Positions 51,016 to 62,765 of a stretch of 64,000 nt of DNA are shown one piece after another. This DNA is from Escherichia phage PJNS034. The stretch lies in the sequence record PP391266.1; one strand, written 5' to 3'. The position numbers and the translations under genes were made by a program. Below the pieces are notes generated by a model that was not told where the DNA came from, searched no databases, and saw nothing but the letters and a program-made list of their open reading frames with translations. Every line of letters starts with the position of its first letter. The stretch's first letter is position 1.

Positions 51016-52413
51016 ATGCCAATCGTAACTATCGTAACTAACCGTAATAACTCTGAAACTAAGCGTGTTGAAGCTCAGTCAGGCGGTTGCTTCGGCTTTA
51101 TGGCATCAACCTCTTTCTTCCGTGACCATCGCCGCGATGTTGAGTACGTTGGTTATCATATGGAGTCATCCAATCAGGCTAAGCATTGTAGCGAAGTCTT
51201 TGATGGTAAGAATAAGTTATTCCCGTATCACAAATTCATGACCAACAATGAGTTCCATGCTATGTTCGGTGAGAACTTTGTGGATACTCGCCACGGTACT
51301 GTTAGTCACCACGGTTATGTGGTTGTTGAAATGCAGCCAGAAGGTTTTGAAGGTGTTGGTATTCCACAGGACATGTTCATCTCTGGTCTGTTCACTGCTC
51401 GTCAGTTGAGCTATGGCCTGTATCCGAACATGCGTGACACCATTAAGAAAGGTGTTCACCCAATGATGGCTTACGTTATCAGTGAGCTGATTCAGTGGGA
51501 AGATACAAGCACTGCTCTTGCTGCACAGCTTCGCTGGAAACGTCAGCGTGTTAGTTCTTCCAACATCGACAGCACAGCGTTCGGTAAGAAGAACCTGATT
51601 AACATGTTCAACTGCCTGAAAGGTAAGAAGCATGTGCCTTACTTCGGTCACGAAGGTGGCATCATTCAGCGTGGTGGTTACAAGCGTGACCATAACTTCA
51701 ACACCTCTGCTGATAATCGTCCGGGTATTTATCAGACAATCACGGCGAACATGAACACTTCATCTGCACCGATTGAAGCTGATGAACCAATCATCAACCC
51801 GTTCCACTTCTCTCCAGCTTACCTCGGTCATGTACTGAATGAACTGCTGGGTTGTGAAGTATTTGATATGTCGAAGATGCTTGACCGTCAGGGTATGAAA
51901 GTTAACCCAAAATCTTCGGTGTACAAGTTCTACCAGATGCGTGATGTGAAGTTCCGTAAGTCATATCGAAAAGGTGATATGGTTGAAGTTCGTGCTGATA
52001 TGTTCGGTGCTGACCAGTACATCAACCGTCACAACACTCCGCTGAGCAATCTGGTTTCTTATCGTCATGGTGAGAACAACACCACTAACCGTGTTGGTTT
52101 CGTACCGGTTAAGACTCATGTTGAGAAGGTCAGCGTGAAGAACGGTGTGGAAAGCGTTAAGCTGGAAAACGGTTGCTGGGTATCTCCACGTTACATCAAA
52201 ACTGCTGGTACTCATGCGGTTGAAGGTGTGAAGATTCAGGCAGGTACTGACACTCCGGTAAATGCACTGTATACAGTTCGTAATTCAAAAGAAGTGTATG
52301 CTGCACGTACCTTTGACTTGTTCGAAGCATCTGTTCGACTGATTCAGGTTACTGGTAACAGTATCGGTCAAGAGATTATCAAGCGTCCACGTGACCTGAT
52401 TCCAGCGCTCTAA
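51016..52413 (+). CDS. hypothetical protein (465 aa), first large gene of the ligase cluster
   Basis: Long ORF with no motif I can assign; contiguous with the amide-ligase genes. Confidence 0.5.
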   Translation: MPIVTIVTNRNNSETKRVEAQSGGCFGFMASTSFFRDHRRDVEYVGYHMESSNQAKHCSEVFDGKNKLFPYHKFMTNNEFHAMFGENFVDTRHGTVSHHGYVVVEMQPEGFEGVGIPQDMFISGLFTARQLSYGLYPNMRDTIKKGVHPMMAYVISELIQWEDTSTALAAQLRWKRQRVSSSNIDSTAFGKKNLINMFNCLKGKKHVPYFGHEGGIIQRGGYKRDHNFNTSADNRPGIYQTITANMNTSSAPIEADEPIINPFHFSPAYLGHVLNELLGCEVFDMSKMLDRQGMKVNPKSSVYKFYQMRDVKFRKSYRKGDMVEVRADMFGADQYINRHNTPLSNLVSYRHGENNTTNRVGFVPVKTHVEKVSVKNGVESVKLENGCWVSPRYIKTAGTHAVEGVKIQAGTDTPVNALYTVRNSKEVYAARTFDLFEASVRLIQVTGNSIGQEIIKRPRDLIPAL

Positions 52414-52645: not shown

Positions 52646-53455
52646 ATGACGATTCGCCTGATTACTCTTGGTGCTGACCCTGAAACTATTGTTGCTCGCA
52701 ACGGTGTTCCAACTCACGCTATTGGTCTTATCGGCGGTACTAAGGAAGAACCACGTAAGATTATCCGTGGTGGTCGTGAAGTTGGTGCGGTGCAGGAAGA
52801 TAATGTCCTGTATGAGTTCAACATCATGCCACACGATACTCGTCAGGGATTCATTGACAACATTCAGCAGATGTTGGAAGTGGGTCGTGAGATTCTGGGT
52901 GATGGTTACGAAATCACTAATAAGACTTCTCACATCTTCTCTGATGAAGACATGGCTCATTTCCCTGACTCAGCGTTTATCTTCGGTTGTGAACCGGATT
53001 TCTTCGCTGGTAATGGTGAGATGAATCCGAAGCCTGCTGCACCGTGGCCGGGTCTGCGTACCGCAGGTGGTCATGTTCACTTCGGGTTCGATGAGCGTGT
53101 AGTTCGTGATGATGAGAATGTTCGTTCTCTGATTCAACTGTGCGATATGTATATGGCGTTGCCGTCAATGCTTCTGGACACTGACGACCTGCGTAAAGAA
53201 CTGTATGGTAAGGCCGGTGCATTCCGTCCGAAAGCATATGGTGCTGAATATCGTACACTGTCAGGTTTCTGGATTCATAATCCTGAAAATACTGGCTTCG
53301 TGTTTGACCAAGCGCAGAAAGCGTATGATGCGTTGGCAACTGGTCTGGGTCGTGAGATGTTGGCACGTTTCCCATACGAACTGGTTGTCGATATCATCAA
53401 CAGCAATGACCGTGGACGTGCTGAACGTGCCCTGAAAGTTATGCAGGTTGCATAA
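52646..53455 (+). CDS. amidoligase-like protein, divergent (269 aa)
   Basis: GADPETIV and TAGGHVHFGF parallel the GLELELE and STHVHLD segments of the downstream amidoligase-like ORF; preceded by conserved leader. Confidence 0.4.
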   Translation: MTIRLITLGADPETIVARNGVPTHAIGLIGGTKEEPRKIIRGGREVGAVQEDNVLYEFNIMPHDTRQGFIDNIQQMLEVGREILGDGYEITNKTSHIFSDEDMAHFPDSAFIFGCEPDFFAGNGEMNPKPAAPWPGLRTAGGHVHFGFDERVVRDDENVRSLIQLCDMYMALPSMLLDTDDLRKELYGKAGAFRPKAYGAEYRTLSGFWIHNPENTGFVFDQAQKAYDALATGLGREMLARFPYELVVDIINSNDRGRAERALKVMQVA

Positions 53456-53637
53456 TGGAAGAAGGTCTGCTGATTAGCTGGGTTGAATCTCCAGCGAACC
53501 GTAAGACCAAGACTCATACCCTCTTCTTCGAAAGCCTGGACGAGGGTTATGAGTTCATGGCCTCTAAAAGTTGTGTAATTCAAGTACAACGCATTCCACT
53601 GGTGAGAAAGAATGGCGAAACTGGTAACGGTAAATAA
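53455..53637 (+). CDS. hypothetical protein (60 aa)
   Basis: ORF-track ORF, start overlaps previous stop. Confidence 0.25.
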   Translation: MEEGLLISWVESPANRKTKTHTLFFESLDEGYEFMASKSCVIQVQRIPLVRKNGETGNGK

Positions 53638-53803
53638 CGCAGATAAAACTGTAACTCGTCGTGTCTTTATGGACAACGAAGAGGGTATCATGTGGGCAGT
53701 TGACCAAGCCCGCACAGCACTGTCAGTCGTGACTGATGATGTGGAAGTGGTCGAGGCTTCCAGCCGTAAAGGTTGGGAAGGTCATATCGCATGTGATTGC
53801 TAA
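53612..53803 (+). CDS. hypothetical protein (63 aa)
   Basis: ORF-track ORF. Confidence 0.25.
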   Translation: MAKLVTVNNADKTVTRRVFMDNEEGIMWAVDQARTALSVVTDDVEVVEASSRKGWEGHIACDC

Positions 53804-53827
53804 TTTAAACTGAACGAGAGAACTAAA

Positions 53828-54436
53828 ATGTCAATCAATATGTCAAGTGGTGATTTACGTCTGTATTGGGGTGGGTGTTATGCACCTGTTGCATGGGATG
53901 CAGCAGATAGTGGCGTAGCAACACTGGTAATTCACGACGTTCGTGTGATAAATCCAATGTCACGTGACTACACCGAAGCACGAGTTCAAGGTGAACTATT
54001 CTTCATTCGTAATGGAGAAGAGGCTCGTGGTAATTTTGAAGGTCGTATGTCTGACCTCCTCGGTGATGGGTTCACCACTCCTCAACGCAATATCGGTTAT
54101 ATCCGTGTTCACGGTCAACCGTATTGGATTACCTTCAAACGTCGTCGTACAAATCGTAAAGGCATCACCAATGACCGTCTGGCTGTGTATGTAGCTGGGC
54201 ATCGTGGTGAAGCAGGTTTGAACTTCGGTAGTGATGTGTTGTGTCGTCTGTATGCAACCTTTGATGGTCGTATCTCTGATGATTTCTGTATTCATCAGAA
54301 CATGATTCATTATAAAGGTGTGGTTGTCGGACGTTATGAGCGTCACAATCGTATTGTATTAGCTGAACGTTTTGCGTATCTTAGCTGGTCGCTGGAACGT
54401 ATCGGTGGTTACGACGTAACGGTGGAGGTTGAGTAA
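53828..54436 (+). CDS. hypothetical protein (202 aa) inside ligase cluster
   Basis: Preceded by conserved TTAAACTGAACGAG leader; stop overlaps amidoligase start. Confidence 0.4.
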   Translation: MSINMSSGDLRLYWGGCYAPVAWDAADSGVATLVIHDVRVINPMSRDYTEARVQGELFFIRNGEEARGNFEGRMSDLLGDGFTTPQRNIGYIRVHGQPYWITFKRRRTNRKGITNDRLAVYVAGHRGEAGLNFGSDVLCRLYATFDGRISDDFCIHQNMIHYKGVVVGRYERHNRIVLAERFAYLSWSLERIGGYDVTVEVE

Positions 54437-55260
54437 TGATTATTGCTGACATTTTAGGGCATGGTCGTGGGTCGGATGTTGTTGATACGCATCCGTTGAT
54501 TGTTGGTCGAGGCCGTGTAGGACTCGAATTAGAACTGGAGAATATGCCAAATGCTCGACAAGCTGCTGGTTGGACAGTTACTGGTGACGGTTCTCTGCGT
54601 AATAGCGGCGTGGAATATGTACTCCGTGGTGCTCAGGGAGGTATGGAGTTATTTAATTCGATACTTTCTCTGGAAGAAGCACTCATGGCACATCAATGTG
54701 ATGCTAACCTTCGCTGCTCTACTCACGTTCACCTTGATATACGTCGGCTCACTGTGGCTCAACTCAAGCGTTTACTTCTGGCTTATACAGTCTTTGAGCC
54801 ATTAATCTTTGAGTTGTCCGGTGCGCATCGTCGTACTAACAACTTCTGTCCGTCGTTTAGTTTCGCTCAGCAACAAATTCGTAAGCTGAGTAACAACTGG
54901 CATCATGATGGTGAACGATTCCTTGCTCGTATTGTGGAAGGTCGTGACCGCCAATCCAGTGATAAGTATTCAGCACTGAATCTGGTTCCAATCTTCACTC
55001 AGGGTTCTGTAGAGTTCCGTGGTGCAGAAGCGAAGCCAAGTGCAGGTAAGATGATTCGTCTGGCTAACCGTATTCTAAGTCTGTATGACTTAGCGGTTAA
55101 CTCTGATATGAATCAGTCTGATGCTGAGTTCATTAACTCACTGGCGAACCTTGATGTTCAACAGGCATTGATGGGTACGATTCCTCGTGACTTCGAACTC
55201 AGCGAAGAACTGGTGAATGAAGGACGTGTCTTAGCGTTCGATATTATCTCTCTGGGGTGA
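54436..55260 (+). CDS. amidoligase (Amidoligase_2 / carboxylate-amine ligase-like) protein
   Basis: VGLELELE...DGSLRNSGVEYV...STHVHLD resembles the putative amidoligase family (glutamine-synthetase-like fold) as recalled. Confidence 0.5.
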   Translation: MIIADILGHGRGSDVVDTHPLIVGRGRVGLELELENMPNARQAAGWTVTGDGSLRNSGVEYVLRGAQGGMELFNSILSLEEALMAHQCDANLRCSTHVHLDIRRLTVAQLKRLLLAYTVFEPLIFELSGAHRRTNNFCPSFSFAQQQIRKLSNNWHHDGERFLARIVEGRDRQSSDKYSALNLVPIFTQGSVEFRGAEAKPSAGKMIRLANRILSLYDLAVNSDMNQSDAEFINSLANLDVQQALMGTIPRDFELSEELVNEGRVLAFDIISLG

Positions 55261-55261
55261 C

Positions 55262-55477
55262 ATGAGCTGGAACGAACGAGAGTATCGTAAACCAAAGTTG
55301 GGCACTGTATGTGTCCACTTCGAACCTTCGTATAAGTCAACCTTTGGAAGTACGAAGAAGTTCCCTAACGCATCGTTCTACTTGAGTACGAACGGTGTAA
55401 TCATCATCCGTGATATGGATGGTGACAACATCTGTGCATACCCTGAAGGTGTGTGGCTGAATGTTGAAATGAAGTGA
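55262..55477 (+). CDS. hypothetical protein (71 aa)
   Basis: ORF-track ORF; followed by a clean terminator hairpin. Confidence 0.3.
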   Translation: MSWNEREYRKPKLGTVCVHFEPSYKSTFGSTKKFPNASFYLSTNGVIIIRDMDGDNICAYPEGVWLNVEMK

Positions 55478-55485
55478 TTAACTCA

Positions 55486-55508
55486 AGCCCTTCTTCGGGA
55501 GGGTTTTA
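55486..55508 (+). terminator. Rho-independent terminator (cassette copy 3)
   Basis: 8-bp stem agcccttc/ggagggtt with ttcg loop, then tttta; preceded by AACTCAAG. Confidence 0.55.
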
Positions 55509-55563
55509 TGGTAATCATTACCACAAACTATTGAAACTAACTATTGAACTTGAGGAAAGTATT

Positions 55564-57156
55564 ATGTGCGGAATCGTTGGAATTATGCGTGGCGTTATGA
55601 CTGAAGGTATGGTGGACATGTTTGAACAACTGCTGTATGCAGATGTGTTCCGTGGCCCGCACTCCACTGGCGTCTATCGTGTTAATAAAGATGGTCAATC
55701 AGGGTTGTATAAGGATGCAGTACCTGCGTCTTTATATCTTGGCTCGAAAGGCTGGGATGATTTACGTGGGAATCTGAATGGAACTGCTGGTCATCAGGCA
55801 CTGTCTCAAGTTTATGTTGGTCATAACCGTTGGGCAACTGTAGGTGCAGTTAACGCTGTGAACTCACATCCATTCAAGTGCGGTAACATCACGATGGTAC
55901 ACAATGGTACTGTTGCGAAGTGGCGTTTGAATGACCACCTGAAGTATGACGTTGATAGTCATGCGGTGTGTGCGATGTTGGATTCACATGGTCTGGCTGA
56001 AACTCTGAAAGTTCTGGATGGTAAGTTTACTCTGGTGTGGCATGACGCATCTGATAACACCATGAACTTTATCCGTAATGCAGAACGTCCTCTGCACATG
56101 GTTGAGTTCACTGATGGTGGTTGGGCGTTTGCATCAGAAGGTGAGATGTTAACGTGGATTAATGGTCGTCGTAAGACCCCGTTTGGTATTAAACGTGCTT
56201 TCGAACTGCCAGTTGGCTTCCATCATAAATTCCAGTTATCCGCGAGCAAAGTAGAGCTTGCGGAGGTCGTTAAGTACGAACTCCCAAAGTTCACCAGCTA
56301 CGCCAGCAACAGCACGTATTATCCAAACCGAAGCTCAGTCGCAAGCAGCAGCGCAAGCTCAACAAACTCAGAAAGCGCAACCGCTAGACGTGTGCGTCTG
56401 ATGAAAGAGTGGGGCATTGACGTTGGAGACCGCAAAGATGTAGAGAACATGATTGTGTCTCTGGATAACATCGCGTTCACAGCGTACTCAACCAATGCAG
56501 CATCAGGTCGTATTGATGCAGACGCATGGGGTTACGATGAAGCTGTTGATGCCTGTGATGCTGGTCATATGGAAATTGACTGTAAGCGTGGTGGTAAAAC
56601 TGAAGATGTTCAGGTAACAGTTTACGGTGTTGATACTGTTAAGTGGAAAGACAACTACTCTCAGGGCGACCGTCTGTACGGTAAGATTGACAGTGTGTTT
56701 GAATCCACTGAGCATGGCAAGACTCGTCTTCGTATCACTTTGAAACCACTGACTCTGTGTACTGAGTTGGCTGATGGCGTTGAAGCCTTTAATGAGAAAG
56801 TGTTCCCGCTCCTCATTAAGAAAGAGGCCGAAAAGGTTGATGCCGACAAAAGTAAATCAGATGTTGCAGGAAGCACTGGAAGCGCAGGAACTGCAACTGG
56901 TCAGGGAACTCAGTTATCGGTTGTAGTGGATAACACTGCAAAAAAGCCGGAAGGTACGGACTCATCAAGCGGCTCGCCGAACTTGTTCAACATGTCCGCA
57001 ATTCCAATGAGTCTTAAAGACTTGCGTGAAGACAAGCTGAGTTGTGCTTGGTGCGGAAATGCAATCCACGAACATAACTACGAAATGTCTGATATGTTCT
57101 TTAAATCTCACATCTGCCCAGATTGTGCCAAGGAGTTACCGGGTTATGGCGACTGA
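55564..57156 (+). CDS. class II (Ntn-type) glutamine amidotransferase-like protein with C-terminal zinc ribbon
   Basis: Begins MCGIVGI (Cys directly after Met, hallmark of N-terminal nucleophile amidotransferases); Ser-rich linker; C-terminal CAWCG...CPDC; start moved to internal ATG with GAGG upstream. Confidence 0.7.
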   Translation: MCGIVGIMRGVMTEGMVDMFEQLLYADVFRGPHSTGVYRVNKDGQSGLYKDAVPASLYLGSKGWDDLRGNLNGTAGHQALSQVYVGHNRWATVGAVNAVNSHPFKCGNITMVHNGTVAKWRLNDHLKYDVDSHAVCAMLDSHGLAETLKVLDGKFTLVWHDASDNTMNFIRNAERPLHMVEFTDGGWAFASEGEMLTWINGRRKTPFGIKRAFELPVGFHHKFQLSASKVELAEVVKYELPKFTSYASNSTYYPNRSSVASSSASSTNSESATARRVRLMKEWGIDVGDRKDVENMIVSLDNIAFTAYSTNAASGRIDADAWGYDEAVDACDAGHMEIDCKRGGKTEDVQVTVYGVDTVKWKDNYSQGDRLYGKIDSVFESTEHGKTRLRITLKPLTLCTELADGVEAFNEKVFPLLIKKEAEKVDADKSKSDVAGSTGSAGTATGQGTQLSVVVDNTAKKPEGTDSSSGSPNLFNMSAIPMSLKDLREDKLSCAWCGNAIHEHNYEMSDMFFKSHICPDCAKELPGYGD

Positions 57157-57439
57157 TAAAATTGTAATTCGTATGCCGAAAGACGACATTGAATGTGAGC
57201 GGAAATATCCGTTCACTTACTTCATGAATGCAGCGCTGCGTGGTATGCAGCGTCGCTACTCTGAACAAGCGTCGGCAAAGTTTGGTAGTGAAGTTGAGAT
57301 TCTATTCCCAACTGCATTATCAAAAATGATTCATGACCACATGGTCACTCTGTATCAACAGGAAGGATTCGAACTCGCTGAAGAAGATTTCGAAGACTCC
57401 GAACAATACCGCAAATATCTGAAACTAATTAAGGGCTAA
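57146..57439 (+). CDS. hypothetical protein (97 aa)
   Basis: ATG overlapping the amidotransferase stop; ORF-track frame. Confidence 0.35.
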   Translation: MATDKIVIRMPKDDIECERKYPFTYFMNAALRGMQRRYSEQASAKFGSEVEILFPTALSKMIHDHMVTLYQQEGFELAEEDFEDSEQYRKYLKLIKG

Positions 57440-57444
57440 AACAA

Positions 57445-58938
57445 ATGCTGCGTATCTTCAACTACAACAACGGTTCTCAAGGTCTGGGTGCTCTGCGTGA
57501 ACATGTAGAGCCATTGATTCGTGAGATGAATACTCATCGTGGTTTCCGTAACATTCGTCCGGTTATGGGTAGCGAGAATGGTTCTGCTCGTCTGTTTCAG
57601 GCGACTAACCGCTTCATTATGAACTGGGGTTCTTCGCAACCCCTGAACACTGATGAAAGCAACTTCGTTCTCAACAAACCGGAAGCTGTTGGTTTAGCAA
57701 CTCATAAACTCCGCTTCTTCCAACATGTTCACCAGTGGAACCAAGAGAAGATTGCTCAGGGTGTGAATGGCCTGACTGTTCCGATTCCTGAGTGGACAAC
57801 TTCTCGTGATGAAGCTCAGACTTGGGCAGGGCATGACCATCTGGTTTATGCCCGTCAACGTCTGCAAGGTCATAGCGGTGAAGGTATCGAAGTATACGGT
57901 ATCAATCAGGTTGTTGAACGTGCTCCACTGTACACCAAAGGCATCATCGGTGCTCGTCGTGAGTATCGTGTTCATGTCATTGCTGGTCAGGTGGCACTGG
58001 TTCAGTTGAAGAAACGCCGCAATGGTGGTGAGGCTGTGGGCAATGGTAATGACCATGTTCGTAACCTCGGCTCTGGTTGGGTGTATGCAGTAAGTGATGC
58101 TCGTCCATCACCAGTCGTATTGAGTGCAGCACAGAATGCAGTTCGTGCTCTGGGTCTGGACTTTGGTGCGGTAGACATTATCGCTAAAGGTCGTAAAGGT
58201 CAGGAGCGTGAGTGCTGGGTGTTGGAAGTTAACACTGCACCGGGTCAGCGTGGTGATACTACTGTGACGCTGTATGCTCGTGCTGTTGCATCGGCATATG
58301 CAATCTGGATGAATCGTGATAGCGTTGACGTCCGTGATTTAGGAGGTGTCAAAGCTGCATGGGAAACACTTCCTTGGCTGAACGATGAAACCTTCCTTGC
58401 TCTGATGCGTGATGAAGGTGCAGATGGTTCGGTACTTCTGCGTTCTCAGCGTGAAACTCAGGCAGCAGAGGCAGAAATGCCTAACACTGACGATGATGTG
58501 GCGGCAGATGAAAACTTTGCCCTTCCTGCTGATGAACTGACACCTGCTCGTGCAACCTCTGGTGCTCATGTAGTTCACACTGGTACTCGTTGGGTTGATG
58601 TAGAAGCAGCACCTCAAGTTCGTGCTGAGCCTGTACGTCGTCGTGACGGTGAGCCAATGCCGTTCAATGGTAATCCATTCGATGCACGTATTCGTCGTGA
58701 ACCTGCACCACGTCCTGCACCTGAACCGGTTGTAATGCCAGAACGTCGTGTCATGTTGTCTCGTCTGGGACAGAATGACCCACAGAACGAACAGTTCGTG
58801 GTATTCACATGGAACGGTCGTCGTGAAGTCGGTGTAGTCAATACTCGTCTGGGTGTTGTTTACATGGCTGGTAGCGAAGTTCAACTTCCACTGGCTCAGG
58901 TTGATTTGATTGCGGTAGTTGATACCGAAATTCGTTAA
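57445..58938 (+). CDS. ATP-grasp ligase (RimK-like) with ~200-aa C-terminal extension
   Basis: YRVHVIAG and GLDFGAVDII...VLEVNTAPG match the RimK/GshB-type ATP-grasp C-terminal motifs as recalled; C-terminal half Pro/Arg-rich, unassigned. Confidence 0.7.
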   Translation: MLRIFNYNNGSQGLGALREHVEPLIREMNTHRGFRNIRPVMGSENGSARLFQATNRFIMNWGSSQPLNTDESNFVLNKPEAVGLATHKLRFFQHVHQWNQEKIAQGVNGLTVPIPEWTTSRDEAQTWAGHDHLVYARQRLQGHSGEGIEVYGINQVVERAPLYTKGIIGARREYRVHVIAGQVALVQLKKRRNGGEAVGNGNDHVRNLGSGWVYAVSDARPSPVVLSAAQNAVRALGLDFGAVDIIAKGRKGQERECWVLEVNTAPGQRGDTTVTLYARAVASAYAIWMNRDSVDVRDLGGVKAAWETLPWLNDETFLALMRDEGADGSVLLRSQRETQAAEAEMPNTDDDVAADENFALPADELTPARATSGAHVVHTGTRWVDVEAAPQVRAEPVRRRDGEPMPFNGNPFDARIRREPAPRPAPEPVVMPERRVMLSRLGQNDPQNEQFVVFTWNGRREVGVVNTRLGVVYMAGSEVQLPLAQVDLIAVVDTEIR

Positions 58939-58967
58939 TTGCTTTAGGGTATTCTTCGGAGTACCCT

Positions 58968-59189
58968 ATGTCGATTGAACCGAACGAGGAATATATGAAA
59001 GTATGGGTAGTTATGTTCCAAGAGTATGACCTAGCCGAAGTGCTGGAAATCTACTCGAAGGAAGAAGATGCTATAGCACATCGTCAGGCTGAAATTGATA
59101 AGAGCTTGTCATACGCTAAGAAGTGGAATGTCAAACCACACCCTGCGCTCGAACAGTTTTATACAATTCACGAAAAAGAGGTAAAGTAA
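58968..59189 (+). CDS. hypothetical protein (73 aa)
   Basis: ATG lies at the 3' edge of a hairpin whose loop carries GGAG. Confidence 0.3.
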   Translation: MSIEPNEEYMKVWVVMFQEYDLAEVLEIYSKEEDAIAHRQAEIDKSLSYAKKWNVKPHPALEQFYTIHEKEVK

Positions 59190-59596
59190 TGAGCAATTTA
59201 GTCGCTGTATATGGTTCCCTTCTGTCTGGTCTGCATAACCACGGTGTTATGGAACGTGCAAAGGGTAAGTTGATTGGTGCTGGTGAATCGGTGCAGAACA
59301 TCAACATGTATTCTCTGGGTGGTTTCCCTTCCATCTCTCTGGAACACTCCAGCCACGGTAATACAATTCGTGTTGAAGTATATGAAGTACCGGATGAAGG
59401 TATGCGTCCTCTGAATGCACTGGAAGGTTATCGTGGTGAAGATGGCCCGAACTTCTACAACCGCACTCCAATCAAAATTAAGATGGACAACGGTGATATG
59501 CTGGAAGCGTTCATCTATCACATCGACGAAACTCAATCCCATCCGGTTATTGATGGTGACTGGCGTAAATATCTGGAACAGCGAGGTCGTGCATAG
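59189..59596 (+). CDS. gamma-glutamyl cyclotransferase-like (AIG2/GGCT fold) protein
   Basis: N-terminal VAVYGSLL matches the YGS(L/N) signature; conserved Glu in LEGYRGE; start moved to internal ATG with AGAGG upstream. Confidence 0.6.
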   Translation: MSNLVAVYGSLLSGLHNHGVMERAKGKLIGAGESVQNINMYSLGGFPSISLEHSSHGNTIRVEVYEVPDEGMRPLNALEGYRGEDGPNFYNRTPIKIKMDNGDMLEAFIYHIDETQSHPVIDGDWRKYLEQRGRA

Positions 59597-61022: not shown

Positions 61023-62765
61023 TTGTCCCAAGAGTATCAAGGTGGTAAACGATTAACGCACGACGGCCCATGTCCAACATGTCGTTCTCATGGACGTGAC
61101 AGAACTGGCAACCACTTACAGTTCTGGGAGAATGATAAAGGCGAGCATTGGGCTTTCTGTAACCGATGCGGTCACTACGAAGACGATGGAAACAAACTCG
61201 GCTCGTATGAAAAGAAAGAACGTCGTGAGTTAAGCGATGAAGAAGTAGCGGAGGTGTTGTCAGAGATTGCCGAACTTCCGTATCAAGCGTTGGGTAGTCG
61301 TGGTATCACATTAGCAGTTGCCGAACGTTATGGTGTTCGTGTTGGATTAAGTCCACAGGACGGACAAACTCAAGTCTCTCACTTCTATCCGAAGATGAAG
61401 GGCAAGGATATCACTGGTTACAAAGTACGTCAGTTGAATCCGAAGTTCTTTTATCATCAAGGTCGTGGTGGTGGATGTGACTTGTTTGGTATGCAGCAAG
61501 CGTTGTTGAAGGATGTGTTTAAACATTCGTTGTATATCTTCGAAGATGAGTTGTCGGCAATGTCTGGTTTTCAGGTATTGAAACAATTCGCAAAAGAGGG
61601 TTACAAGAACTACTCACCAGCGGTTGTTTCATTGCCAGATGGAACGAAATCAGCAGCACGAGTGTGTGGTCAGAACCGTGAGTTCATCCAGAGTTTCAAA
61701 GAAGTTGTTGTCTGTATGGATAACGACAAAGCTGGTGATGATGCGGTTGAAGTGATTCGTTCACTTTATCCTGACAAAGTAAAAGTGGTACGACTTCCGC
61801 TGAAAGATGCGAACGATATGCTTATGGCAGGTCGTGAAATGGAGTTGTATCAGCACTTACGATTCAATGCCAAGACTGAGACGCCAGACGGTGCAGTATC
61901 CATTATGGATTGCATTGAAGATGCGTTGAAGAAACCGGAATGGGGTTTATCATTCCCGTGGCAGGGTCTTACGAACTTAACTTATGGCATTCAGTACGGT
62001 GAGATTATCGCTGTTGGTGGTGGTGTAGGTTTGGGTAAGACCTTGATTGGTCATGAGTTGTGTGCTCACTTGATTAATGTCGAGAAACAACGAATCGGCA
62101 TGTTCATGCTGGAGGAAACTGTTGGCAATACCATCAAGAACATTTCTGGTAAGGTTGCTAATATTCCTTTCCATCGCCCAGATGTTGAGTATGACCCTCA
62201 AACCCTTCGTGACGTAGCAATGTCGTTTGGCGACAATGTAGCGTTGTGGCAGAACAAAGGTCAGAACTCATGGGAGAACATTAAGGCATGTATGCGGTTC
62301 TGGGCTGTAGTTGAGGGTCGTAAGATTATGATTCTCGATAACATCACAGCGTTAACTGCTCACTTAACTCCAAGTGAAATCAACACGGAAATCAGTAAGA
62401 TTGCATCTGAACTTGCTGGCCTGTGTGACGAGTTAGGTATTGCATGTTTTGTATTCTCTCACTTAAATCCACCGTCAGGTGGTAAGCCACACGAAGAAGG
62501 TGGTGAAGTTAAAGAGGTTCAGTTCACTGGTTCACGAGCGTTGATGCGTTGGTGTCAGGTGATTCTTGGCTTCGAACGTAACAAATATGCAGAAGGGGAT
62601 GCAAAGAACATCTCACGCATTAAGTTACTGAAAGACCGTAAGTATGGTCAGTCTGGTTATATTCATACACGGTTCTATCCTGAAACTGGTCGTTTACTCG
62701 AAGTGACTGAACAAGAAGCTGGCGAGTACGAACAGACAGAGGAAGATAAAGACCGTTCATTCTAA
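61023..62765 (+). CDS. primase-helicase (T7 gp4-like)
   Basis: N-terminal zinc-binding CPTC...CNRC, central primase-like region, helicase Walker A GGGVGLGKT and Walker B-like MILDNIT; start read as TTG. Confidence 0.85.
   Translation: MSQEYQGGKRLTHDGPCPTCRSHGRDRTGNHLQFWENDKGEHWAFCNRCGHYEDDGNKLGSYEKKERRELSDEEVAEVLSEIAELPYQALGSRGITLAVAERYGVRVGLSPQDGQTQVSHFYPKMKGKDITGYKVRQLNPKFFYHQGRGGGCDLFGMQQALLKDVFKHSLYIFEDELSAMSGFQVLKQFAKEGYKNYSPAVVSLPDGTKSAARVCGQNREFIQSFKEVVVCMDNDKAGDDAVEVIRSLYPDKVKVVRLPLKDANDMLMAGREMELYQHLRFNAKTETPDGAVSIMDCIEDALKKPEWGLSFPWQGLTNLTYGIQYGEIIAVGGGVGLGKTLIGHELCAHLINVEKQRIGMFMLEETVGNTIKNISGKVANIPFHRPDVEYDPQTLRDVAMSFGDNVALWQNKGQNSWENIKACMRFWAVVEGRKIMILDNITALTAHLTPSEINTEISKIASELAGLCDELGIACFVFSHLNPPSGGKPHEEGGEVKEVQFTGSRALMRWCQVILGFERNKYAEGDAKNISRIKLLKDRKYGQSGYIHTRFYPETGRLLEVTEQEAGEYEQTEEDKDRSF

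What the first reader, a model, noticed from the sequence alone, without database searches (positions are those of the whole stretch)
55564..57156. Ntn-type amidotransferase-like protein fused to a serine-rich linker and a C-terminal zinc ribbon
The protein starts Met-Cys-Gly-Ile-Val-Gly-Ile, the arrangement needed for an N-terminal cysteine nucleophile after Met removal. The ~250-aa catalytic domain is followed by low-complexity SSVASSSASSTNSES and a C-terminal CAWCG...CPDC ribbon, an architecture I do not recognise from PurF, asparagine synthetase or GlmS. A zinc ribbon could tether the enzyme to nucleic acid or to a partner.
Basis: partly seen in the sequence, partly recalled or inferred. 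Interest (0 to 1): 0.7.

Follow-up and report, generated by a model that had tools for sequence, protein, structure and literature searches.

The report
Phage glutamine amidotransferase with zinc ribbon
This gene encodes a real glutamine-splitting enzyme domain joined to a small barrel domain and a zinc ribbon, but it is a typical member of a widespread, already-described bacteriophage gene cassette whose biochemical job has been predicted, never measured.

Summary
Window 55564-57156 (+) encodes a 530-aa protein starting Met-Cys-Gly. It has a class II (Ntn) glutamine amidotransferase domain (aa 1-244), a Ser-rich disordered linker and a C-terminal CxxC...CxxC ribbon.

The architecture is not new. 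The window is Escherichia phage PJNS034, and the protein is identical to a deposited "hypothetical protein". It matches PHROG 4736 over its full length. Relatives occur in 321 phage genomes and 398 viral contigs. The OB-like plus ribbon module defines 1,057 clusters, nearly all fused to the GATase.

The gene sits in a conserved cassette: COOH-NH2 ligase, phi32_85-like protein, Amidoligase_2, GATase, DUF7195, RimK-like ATP-grasp, GGACT. This cassette is known from phiEco32, 7-11 and LUZ24-like phages. Iyer 2009 and Hardies 2013 predicted that it modifies peptidoglycan, and no experiment has tested that.

My best reading is that the protein is the glutamine-hydrolysing, ammonia-donating subunit for the adjacent, translationally coupled amidoligase. 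The OB-like domain and the acidic ribbon would then dock it to a partner. An EgtC-like gamma-glutamyl hydrolase role is a serious rival. Direct nucleic-acid tethering is disfavoured.

Verdict: ordinary member of a known, functionally unsolved family. Interest is modest.

The parts
55552..55557 (+). Shine-Dalgarno GAGGAA, 6 nt upstream of the ATG at 55564
   Evidence: Read directly from the sequence. The 55564 start is also supported by 114 of 120 homologues beginning MC.
55564..57156 (+). Whole gene: GATase-II, OB-like domain and zinc ribbon; 530 aa, stop codon included
   Evidence: ORF list. PHROG 4736 match over aa 1-525, E 2.9e-94. 100% identical to a hypothetical protein of Escherichia phage PJNS034.
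55567..56295 (+). Class II (Ntn) glutamine amidotransferase domain, aa 2-244. Catalytic C2; R89, N114-G115 and D131 bind glutamine and form the oxyanion hole
   Evidence: Pfam GATase_6, 3.3e-18. Family profile against E. coli GlmS, E 5e-19 over the whole glutaminase domain. Foldseek against 1xff_A, E 8e-14, TM 0.72 on the target. Invariant columns.
56296..56364 (+). Ser-rich disordered linker 1, aa 245-267, containing SSVASSSASSTNSES
   Evidence: pLDDT <50 for aa 245-267.
56371..56853 (+). Middle beta-rich domain, aa ~270-430, with OB-fold-like topology: b1-b2-[helical insert]-b3-helix-b4-b5
56854..56970 (+). Disordered Gly/Ser/Thr/Lys-rich linker 2, aa ~431-469
   Evidence: Low pLDDT for aa 440-469.
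56971..57144 (+). C-terminal zinc-ribbon module, aa ~470-527: short beta hairpin and helix, then C494-x2-C497 ... C518-x2-C521
   Evidence: The four Cys are invariant in the 43-module alignment; in the 69-sequence alignment three are invariant and C494 is nearly so. pLDDT ~90. No named ribbon family reaches threshold; the best is the NudC ribbon at E 0.004.
52646..53455 (+). Cassette partner: phiEco32-type COOH-NH2 ligase (GCS/GS superfamily)
   Evidence: Pfam PF14395, 4.6e-10; PHROG 3815, 1.7e-85. Present in 79 of the 86 loci examined, 84 of which carry the GATase.
53828..54436 (+). Cassette partner: phi32_85-like protein of unknown function, 202 aa
   Evidence: PHROG 4877. A ~170-260-aa ORF occupies this position between the two ligases in nearly all loci. 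No Pfam or PDB match.
54436..55260 (+). Cassette partner: Amidoligase_2, the likely partner enzyme of the GATase
   Evidence: Pfam PF12224, 5.7e-12. Found in 81 of the 86 loci examined. In the loci where it lies directly upstream of the GATase (about two thirds of those with both genes), the gaps are typically -13 to +4 nt.
55262..55477 (+). 71-aa ORF between Amidoligase_2 and the GATase, lineage-specific
   Evidence: Found only in the window and in phage TacPo2.
57146..57439 (+). DUF7195 small protein (97 aa). Its ATG overlaps the GATase 3' end by 11 nt
   Evidence: Pfam PF23825. Sequence and translation. The same position is occupied in 7-11, in L005 and in LUZ24-like loci.
57445..58938 (+). 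Cassette partner: RimK-like ATP-grasp ligase with a Pro/Arg-rich C-terminal extension
   Evidence: PHROG 2599, 2.3e-75 over aa 1-376. Found in 79 of the 86 loci examined.
59189..59596 (+). Cassette partner: GGACT/AIG2-type gamma-glutamyl cyclotransferase
   Evidence: Pfam PF06094, 2.7e-19; PHROG 2520. Found in 51 of the 86 loci examined.

Best explanation
The gene encodes the glutamine-hydrolysing subunit of a conserved early-gene cassette of lytic phages. Besides the GATase, the cassette holds two GS/GCS-type amidoligases, a RimK-like ATP-grasp ligase, usually a gamma-glutamyl cyclotransferase, and small unknown proteins.

Shown: the N-terminal domain is an intact class II (Ntn) glutaminase, with Cys exposed after Met removal and a complete glutamine pocket. 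It carries no acceptor (synthase) domain of its own. It is encoded immediately next to ATP-dependent carboxylate-amine ligases and is often translationally coupled to them.

Inferred: Cys2 attacks the amide of glutamine and releases ammonia. The ammonia passes in trans to an acyl-phosphate formed by the adjacent Amidoligase_2 (or by the COOH-NH2 ligase), converting a carboxylate of the pathway intermediate into a primary amide. This would be the same logic as MurT/GatD or AsnB. The OB-like barrel and the acidic zinc ribbon, held on flexible linkers, would dock the glutaminase onto its partner enzyme(s) or the carrier protein rather than bind nucleic acid.

The end product of the cassette is unknown. 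The published prediction is a modified peptidoglycan peptide or another gamma-glutamyl peptide.
For: Fold and residues. AF2 gives pLDDT >90 for aa 1-244. Foldseek top hits are the GlmS glutaminase domain, GFAT, AsnS and PurF (E 8e-14 to 1e-10). The family profile aligns with the whole GlmS glutaminase domain at E 5e-19. R30, R89, H102, N114, G115 and D131 are invariant across 69 sequences, and C2 is present in at least 90%. R89, N114, G115 and D131 align with GlmS R73, N98, G99 and D123. The family pattern GHNR[WYA]AT keeps the aromatic residue that follows the Arg in GlmS (W74).

Proximity to true amidotransferases. By sequence the domain is much nearer to them than to stand-alone hydrolases: GlmS 8e-12 and AsnB 2e-7, against EgtC 6e-6 at 25.7 bits; Pfam GATase_4 is below its cut-off.

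Context. Of the 86 loci examined, 84 carry the GATase, 81 Amidoligase_2, 79 the COOH-NH2 ligase and 79 the ATP-grasp. Amidoligase_2-to-GATase junctions are mostly -13 to +4 nt. The order is the same in 7-11, in LUZ24-like UFV-P2 and in metagenomic phages.

Expression. The SU10 homologue was detected by mass spectrometry as an early product.

Docking role. The ribbon is acidic across the family. The OB-like plus ribbon module is found almost only fused to this GATase.
Against: No biochemical data exist for any member. No ammonia channel or physical complex with a ligase has been shown, and I could not run a multimer prediction.

From my memory of the Pfam PF12224 text and of Iyer 2009, the partner GATase was read there as a 'GAT-like thiol peptidase', that is, a hydrolase. 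Conserved glutamine-pocket residues would serve a gamma-glutamyl-X hydrolase equally well.

A gamma-glutamyl cyclotransferase is in the same cassette, and in one locus a class I GATase/Peptidase_C26 as well. Both point to gamma-glutamyl bond cleavage chemistry.

In about a third of loci the gene order is GATase > COOH-NH2 ligase > Amidoligase_2, so the specific partner is ambiguous.
Confidence: 0.45

Rival explanations
1. Gamma-glutamyl amidohydrolase (EgtC/PuuD logic). The Ntn domain does not donate ammonia. Instead it removes a gamma-glutamyl group that one of the GCS-type ligases had attached to an intermediate, either as a protecting or activating group or for recycling.
For: The protein is a stand-alone GATase-II domain without a synthase domain. 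The cassette's enzyme set resembles the gamma-glutamyl cycle: GCS-like ligases, a GshB/RimK-like ATP-grasp and a GGCT-like enzyme. There is a weak EgtC hit at 6e-6. EgtA plus EgtC is a precedent from established knowledge. PMC5498523 lists the GATase among the cassette's 'degradation' enzymes.
Against: The domain is much closer to GlmS, PurF and AsnS than to EgtC/YafJ-type hydrolases: profile E 5e-19 against 6e-4 for 1te5, and GATase_4 is below its cut-off. GGACT already supplies a gamma-glutamyl-cleaving activity in 51 of 86 loci and co-occurs with the GATase rather than replacing it.
Confidence: 0.27
2. Nucleic-acid-tethered amidotransferase. The OB fold plus zinc ribbon bind tRNA, ssDNA or DNA, and the cassette installs an amino-acid or amide hypermodification on nucleic acid.
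For: The structural neighbours of the middle domain are S1, SSB and RPA-type OB folds. The cassette lies next to the primase-helicase and DNA polymerase genes.
Confidence: 0.08
3. GlmS-like hexosamine synthase, as many GenBank records annotate it ('L-glutamine-D-fructose-6-phosphate aminotransferase'), or a general nitrogen-assimilation auxiliary metabolic gene.
For: This annotation is found on homologues in many phage records. GlmS is the best solved relative of the N-domain. An eLife 2024 paper interprets the cassette as nitrogen-metabolism AMGs.
Against: Only the glutaminase half matches. The NCBIfam GlmS models score 44 and 35 bits against cut-offs of 381 and 418, and no SIS isomerase domain is present. 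The C-terminal 290 aa are an OB-like domain plus a ribbon. The AMG claim rests on growth effects, not on enzyme assays.
Confidence: 0.04

Closest known systems
phiEco32 gp83 / Salmonella phage 7-11 gp102 / LUZ24 gp19-type phage glutamine amidotransferases (PHROG 4736), within the amidoligase cassette of Iyer et al. 2009 and Hardies et al. 2013
   Same: Same N-terminal MCG class II GATase. Same variable linker, OB-like middle domain and C-terminal CxxC...CxxC ribbon(s). Same neighbours in the same order.
   Different: Only ~42% identical in the N-domain. It has one ribbon where 7-11 has three. Amidoligase_2 is short (274 aa against 567 aa in 7-11). An extra 71-aa ORF is inserted before the GATase.
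E. coli GlmS glutaminase domain (PDB 1xff), and the PurF and AsnB N-domains
   Same: Ntn fold, N-terminal Cys nucleophile, Arg73/Asn98-Gly99/Asp123-equivalent residues, and an aromatic residue after the Arg.
   Different: No fused synthase domain (SIS, PRTase or PP-loop). Any acceptor enzyme must act in trans.
MurT/GatD peptidoglycan amidotransferase (established knowledge; PMC5871853 and PMC3267633 were listed but I did not read them)
   Same: A separate glutaminase subunit paired with an ATP-dependent ligase-fold enzyme that activates a carboxylate for amidation. The two genes are adjacent and co-transcribed.
   Different: GatD is a class I (triad) GATase and MurT is a Mur-ligase fold. Here the glutaminase is class II and the ligases are GS/GCS-type. 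No complex has been shown here.
EgtA/EgtC of ergothioneine biosynthesis; BtrJ/BtrG of butirosin biosynthesis (established knowledge)
   Same: A GCS-type or ATP-grasp ligase adds a gamma-glutamyl group. A class II GATase-like hydrolase (EgtC) or a GGCT-fold enzyme (BtrG) removes it later. All four enzyme types are represented in the cassette.
   Different: EgtC belongs to the stand-alone GATase_4/YafJ-like branch, which this protein matches only weakly (25.7 bits against a cut-off of 218.65). No sulfur- or aminoglycoside-pathway genes are present.

Membership tests
Class II (Ntn, PurF-type) glutamine amidotransferase domain | Catalytic Cys as the first residue after the initiator Met | tested here: met
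   MCGIVGIM at the SD-supported start. 114 of 120 homologues start MC. C2 is present in >=90% of 69 aligned sequences.
Class II (Ntn, PurF-type) glutamine amidotransferase domain | Glutamine-binding and oxyanion residues (GlmS R73, N98-G99, D123) | tested here: met
   R89, N114, G115 and D131 are invariant and align with the GlmS residues.
Class II (Ntn, PurF-type) glutamine amidotransferase domain | Four-layer alpha-beta-beta-alpha Ntn fold | tested here: met
   AF2 pLDDT >90. Foldseek against 1xff_A, E 8e-14, TM 0.72 on the target; AsnS and PurF also hit.
Class II (Ntn, PurF-type) glutamine amidotransferase domain | Curated Pfam threshold | tested here: met
   GATase_6 scores 66.4 bits (cut-off 27) and GATase_7 scores 28 bits (cut-off 25).
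Class II (Ntn, PurF-type) glutamine amidotransferase domain | Coupled acceptor (synthase) domain receiving ammonia through a channel | tested here: not met
   There is no synthase domain in cis; the rest of the protein is an OB-like domain plus a ribbon. A partner in trans is inferred from gene adjacency only.
Class II (Ntn, PurF-type) glutamine amidotransferase domain | Glutaminase activity dependent on Cys1 | not testable with these tools
   Needs an enzyme assay of the wild type and a C2A mutant.
GlmS (glutamine--fructose-6-phosphate aminotransferase), as homologues are often annotated | Full-length match including the two SIS isomerase domains | tested here: not met
   NCBIfam PRK00331 scores 44.3 bits against a cut-off of 381, and TIGR01135 scores 34.7 against 418. 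Only aa 1-192 match.
Phage amidoligase/GATase/ATP-grasp cassette (Iyer 2009; Hardies 2013), GATase member = PHROG 4736 | Full-length similarity to the phage GATase family | tested here: met
   PHROG 4736, E 2.9e-94, aa 1-525. BFVD structural hits to the GAP52 and LAh_9 GATases with the C-terminal fragment alone.
Phage amidoligase/GATase/ATP-grasp cassette (Iyer 2009; Hardies 2013), GATase member = PHROG 4736 | Neighbourhood with COOH-NH2_lig, Amidoligase_2, RimK-like ATP-grasp and GGACT in the early/replication gene arm | tested here: met
   All are present in the window at 52646-59596, with the primase-helicase at 61023. The same set is found in 79-81 of the 86 loci examined.
Phage amidoligase/GATase/ATP-grasp cassette (Iyer 2009; Hardies 2013), GATase member = PHROG 4736 | Predicted function: peptidoglycan peptide modification | not testable with these tools
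   Only predictions exist in the literature.
EgtC/YafJ-type stand-alone gamma-glutamyl amidohydrolases | Curated family thresholds (NCBIfam EgtC, Pfam GATase_4) | tested here: not met
   EgtC scores 25.7 bits against a cut-off of 218.65. GATase_4 scores 17.3 against 23.
Nucleic-acid-binding OB fold plus zinc ribbon | OB-fold topology of the middle domain | tested here: inconclusive
Nucleic-acid-binding OB fold plus zinc ribbon | Basic, nucleic-acid-compatible electrostatics conserved across the family | tested here: not met
   Ribbon module: median pI 4.71, median net charge -5, only 12% basic. Middle region: median pI 5.2.
Named zinc-ribbon families (Pfam) | Any ribbon family reaching its gathering score | tested here: not met
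   The best is HVO_0758 at 20.5 bits against a cut-off of 27. Across 43 modules no family is matched consistently. The NudC ribbon scores E 0.004.

The most novel reading that the evidence does not exclude
The cassette may not be a peptidoglycan modifier at all. It may be a phage-encoded assembly line that builds a gamma-glutamyl or amide-bearing small molecule, or tags a host or phage macromolecule. In that reading the GATase-OB-ribbon protein is the hub that recruits the substrate or a carrier protein through its OB-like and ribbon modules. This would be a class II amidotransferase working in trans with GS-type ligases, an arrangement with no characterised precedent that I know of.
Probability: 0.3. 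Interest if true: 0.7.

Novelty: new member of a known kind. Interest (0 to 1): 0.3.

Why it matters
The cassette is carried by hundreds of sequenced lytic podophages, including LUZ24-like and phiEco32-like phages that are being considered for therapy. It is also abundant in marine viromes. Its chemistry has nonetheless stayed a prediction since 2009.

Three findings here give a concrete design for a first biochemical test. The GATase is catalytically intact. It is translationally coupled to Amidoligase_2. It carries a family-specific acidic OB-like plus ribbon module. The test would be co-expression, partner-stimulated glutaminase activity and product identification.

The work also flags a common mis-annotation: many phage genome records call this protein 'GlmS'.

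For this window in particular, the gene is an ordinary member of the family.

Tried and rejected
1. GlmS identity. Rejected, because only the glutaminase half matches.

2. A specific named zinc-ribbon family. I tried Pfam on the module, Pfam on 43 modules and a profile against PDB. Everything was sub-threshold, and the marginal NudC ribbon hit was not pursued. JGI's name 'YacG/DUF329' on homologue P0030 was not reproduced for this protein.

3. Known defence or anti-defence families. PADLOC gave no hits for any cassette protein.

4. A carrier-protein tail (LysW- or S6-like conserved acidic C-terminus) on the GATase, the phi32_85-like protein or DUF7195. The C-termini are not conserved.

5. Identity of the phi32_85-like protein. 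There is no Pfam match at E <= 10 and no meaningful PDB profile match (best 0.84).

6. Solved relatives of Amidoligase_2 or of the ATP-grasp by sequence. None were useful.

7. The OB-ribbon module in other protein contexts. It was found almost only fused to the GATase. The few short hits look like fragments or split genes, and I could not check their context.

8. The primary papers Iyer 2009, Hardies 2013 and Savalia 2008 were not held in the library. Their content is cited second-hand.

9. The AFDB fold library was unavailable.

10. Correlating ribbon number with partner lengths gave only a weak hint: three-ribbon proteins go with a long Amidoligase_2, n=5.
Full report
OBSERVATION. The + strand ORF 55474..57156 contains the ATG at 55564, which is the real start. 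A GAGGAA Shine-Dalgarno sits 6 nt upstream. Of 120 database homologues, 114 begin 'MC'. The product is 530 aa and begins MCGIVGIM, so removing the Met exposes Cys as residue 1. About 230 residues separate the Ser-rich linker from the ribbon, and most of them form a folded domain.

WHERE THE WINDOW COMES FROM. The protein is 100% identical to a 'hypothetical protein' of Escherichia phage PJNS034, on a 65.7-kb contig. The nearest annotated relative is Pantoea phage TacPo2, at 70% amino-acid identity, and that genome is annotated entirely as hypothetical. The window is almost a whole podophage-type genome. The replication genes (primase-helicase, a split DNA polymerase, exonuclease) are on the + strand around the locus.

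ANATOMY. AlphaFold2 on a 69-sequence alignment gives mean pLDDT 85.7. It shows three confident modules separated by disordered linkers:
- aa 1-244, the N-terminal domain
- aa ~270-430, a middle domain
- aa ~470-527, a C-terminal module
- linkers at aa 245-267 and 440-469

Module 1 is a class II (Ntn) glutaminase.
- Pfam GATase_6 scores 66.4 bits against a cut-off of 27.
- Foldseek matches the GlmS glutaminase domain 1xff at E 8e-14 with TM 0.72 on the target, followed by GFAT, AsnS and PurF.
- The family profile aligns with the entire GlmS glutaminase domain at E 5e-19.
- R89, N114, G115 and D131 are invariant across 69 sequences, and C2 is present in at least 90%. They correspond to GlmS Cys1, Arg73, Asn98, Gly99 and Asp123.
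- The active site is therefore intact.

Module 3 is a four-Cys zinc ribbon preceded by a short hairpin and helix. The four Cys are invariant in the 43-module alignment; in the 69-sequence alignment three are invariant and C494 is nearly so. No named ribbon family reaches threshold. The best matches are the NudC ribbon at E 0.004 and sub-threshold Pfam hits.

HOW COMMON IS THE ARCHITECTURE.
- PHROG 4736 matches aa 1-525 at E 2.9e-94.
- tblastn finds relatives in 321 of 50,697 phage records: phiEco32-like, 7-11-like and LUZ24-like phages, Vibrio, Aeromonas and Proteus phages, and marine phages.
- A pattern scan found 398 viral contigs.
- An exhaustive profile search with only the OB-like plus ribbon fragment found 1,057 clusters at 50% identity. 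In nearly all of them the match starts ~250-330 residues into a 420-690-aa protein with GATase motifs.
- 7-11 gp102 has three ribbons.
- A marine subclade of 372-406 aa keeps the OB-like domain but has no ribbon.

The GATase plus OB-like core is thus the constant. The ribbon is frequent, in 85% of the nearest 120 homologues and about 60% of the sampled viral loci (51 of 84), but it is dispensable.

CONTEXT. In the window the gene lies in a tightly packed run of genes:
- COOH-NH2 ligase, 52646-53455
- phi32_85-like protein, 53828-54436
- Amidoligase_2, 54436-55260
- a 71-aa ORF, 55262-55477
- the GATase, 55564-57156
- DUF7195, 57146-57439, overlapping the GATase by 11 nt
- RimK-like ATP-grasp, 57445-58938
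- GGACT, ~59189-59596

The same order is annotated in Salmonella phage 7-11 gp105-gp099, with notes pointing to phiEco32 phi32_86..81. It is also seen in LUZ24-like UFV-P2 ORF21-29.

I examined 86 loci with iterative HMMs. Of these, 84 carry the GATase. Across the 86, Amidoligase_2 is present in 81, the COOH-NH2 ligase in 79, the ATP-grasp in 79 and GGACT in 51. A ~170-260-aa ORF nearly always sits between the two ligases, so the fast-evolving phi32_85-like protein is a fifth core member.

Two orders dominate: CNL>(P85)>AL2>GAT>AGR and GAT>CNL>AL2>AGR. Here CNL is the COOH-NH2 ligase, P85 the phi32_85-like protein, AL2 Amidoligase_2, GAT the GATase and AGR the ATP-grasp. Where Amidoligase_2 precedes the GATase, the junction is typically -13 to +4 nt. 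That spacing indicates translational coupling.

WHAT IS KNOWN. The cassette was described computationally by Iyer et al. 2009 and Hardies et al. 2013. I could not open either paper. Later papers summarise them in these ways:
- as a 'seven-gene peptidoglycan modification cassette' able to make three unusual peptide linkages
- as a means of blocking superinfection
- as preparation of the wall for lysis

One paper reads the genes as nitrogen-metabolism AMGs. I found no enzymology. The only direct evidence is that the SU10 homologue is made as an early protein. Many GenBank records call the protein GlmS. That is wrong, because only the glutaminase half matches (44 bits against a cut-off of 381).

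MECHANISM. Three things are shown: an intact glutamine pocket, no acceptor domain in cis, and obligatory adjacency to ATP-dependent carboxylate-amine ligases.

My best inference (confidence ~0.45) is a glutaminase subunit that feeds ammonia in trans to an acyl-phosphate made by Amidoligase_2 or by the COOH-NH2 ligase, producing a primary amide. This is the logic of MurT/GatD and of AsnB. It fits the fact that the founding member of the GS fold uses ammonia as its nucleophile.

The main rival (~0.27) is an EgtC-like gamma-glutamyl hydrolase. The cassette's enzyme set resembles the gamma-glutamyl cycle, and the glutamine pocket would fit gamma-glutamyl-X equally well. Against this rival, the domain is far closer to GlmS, PurF and AsnS than to EgtC/YafJ-type enzymes. 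Also, GGACT co-occurs with the GATase rather than substituting for it.

For the OB-like and ribbon modules I favour docking to a partner or carrier protein. The ribbon modules are acidic across the family: median pI 4.7, median net charge -5, only 12% basic. The module is specific to this GATase family. The ribbon is dispensable in one subclade. Nucleic-acid tethering is not excluded (~0.08), but the electrostatics argue against it.

NOVELTY AND VERDICT. The architecture is nonetheless the norm for a large, previously noted phage family, and the protein itself is already in GenBank. It is a new, divergent member of a known kind. What remains interesting belongs to the family as a whole, namely the unknown product of a very widespread phage cassette, and not to this locus. 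Interest 0.3.

Noticed in passing
window 57146-57156; homologue P0002: The DUF7195 gene starts at ATG 57146, inside the last codons of the GATase, an 11-nt overlap with an AGGAG upstream. In the 84%-identical homologue P0002 (546 aa), the GATase reads through into the DUF7195 N-terminus (...GYGADKIVIRMPKRRH).
   Followed up: partly
window 55488-55509: A hairpin, CCCTTC-TTCG-GGAGGG, followed by TTTTAT lies just after the 71-aa ORF and 55 nt before the GATase start. It is terminator-like, or an RNA stability or processing element inside the cassette.
   Followed up: no
window 55262-55477: A 71-aa ORF is wedged between Amidoligase_2 and the GATase. It was found only here and in Pantoea phage TacPo2 and matches no family.
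   Followed up: partly
window 53828-54436 and the equivalent position in L001-L085: The phi32_85-like ~200-aa protein is a positional constant between the two amidoligases in nearly all loci. It evolves very fast. It has a conserved D..MYY..TY N-terminal motif and an R-x3-K-K-G motif. It has no Pfam or PDB relative.
   Followed up: partly
L004 2809-3423: One metagenomic cassette also carries a class I GATase/Peptidase_C26 (gamma-glutamyl hydrolase family) gene in addition to the class II GATase.
   Followed up: no
L005 11238-15550: In an 84-kb phage contig the cassette is followed by PRPP-synthetase-like (Pribosyltran_N/Pribosyltran), NAPRTase-family and faint Macro-domain genes. This resembles a phage NAD-reconstitution module.
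   Followed up: no
L002, L005, L006, L008, L009 compared with the other loci: GATases with three ribbons co-occur with long Amidoligase_2 proteins (474-567 aa against a median of ~305). Ribbon-less GATases co-occur with GGACT in 88% of loci and with longer ATP-grasp proteins. The three-ribbon group has only five loci, so this is only a hint.
   Followed up: partly
phage records (e.g. NC_015938.1 gp102, PQ850610.1, KU-series LUZ24-like phages): Homologues are widely annotated as 'L-glutamine-D-fructose-6-phosphate aminotransferase', although they lack the isomerase half of GlmS. This is a propagated mis-annotation.
   Followed up: yes
window 57445-58938 (aa ~377-497 of the ATP-grasp): The RimK-like ATP-grasp has a ~120-aa C-terminal extension beyond the PHROG 2599 match. 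It includes a Pro/Arg-rich stretch (RREPAPRPAPEPVV).
   Followed up: no
window 51016-52413: A 465-aa ORF just upstream of the cassette has no PHROG match.
   Followed up: no
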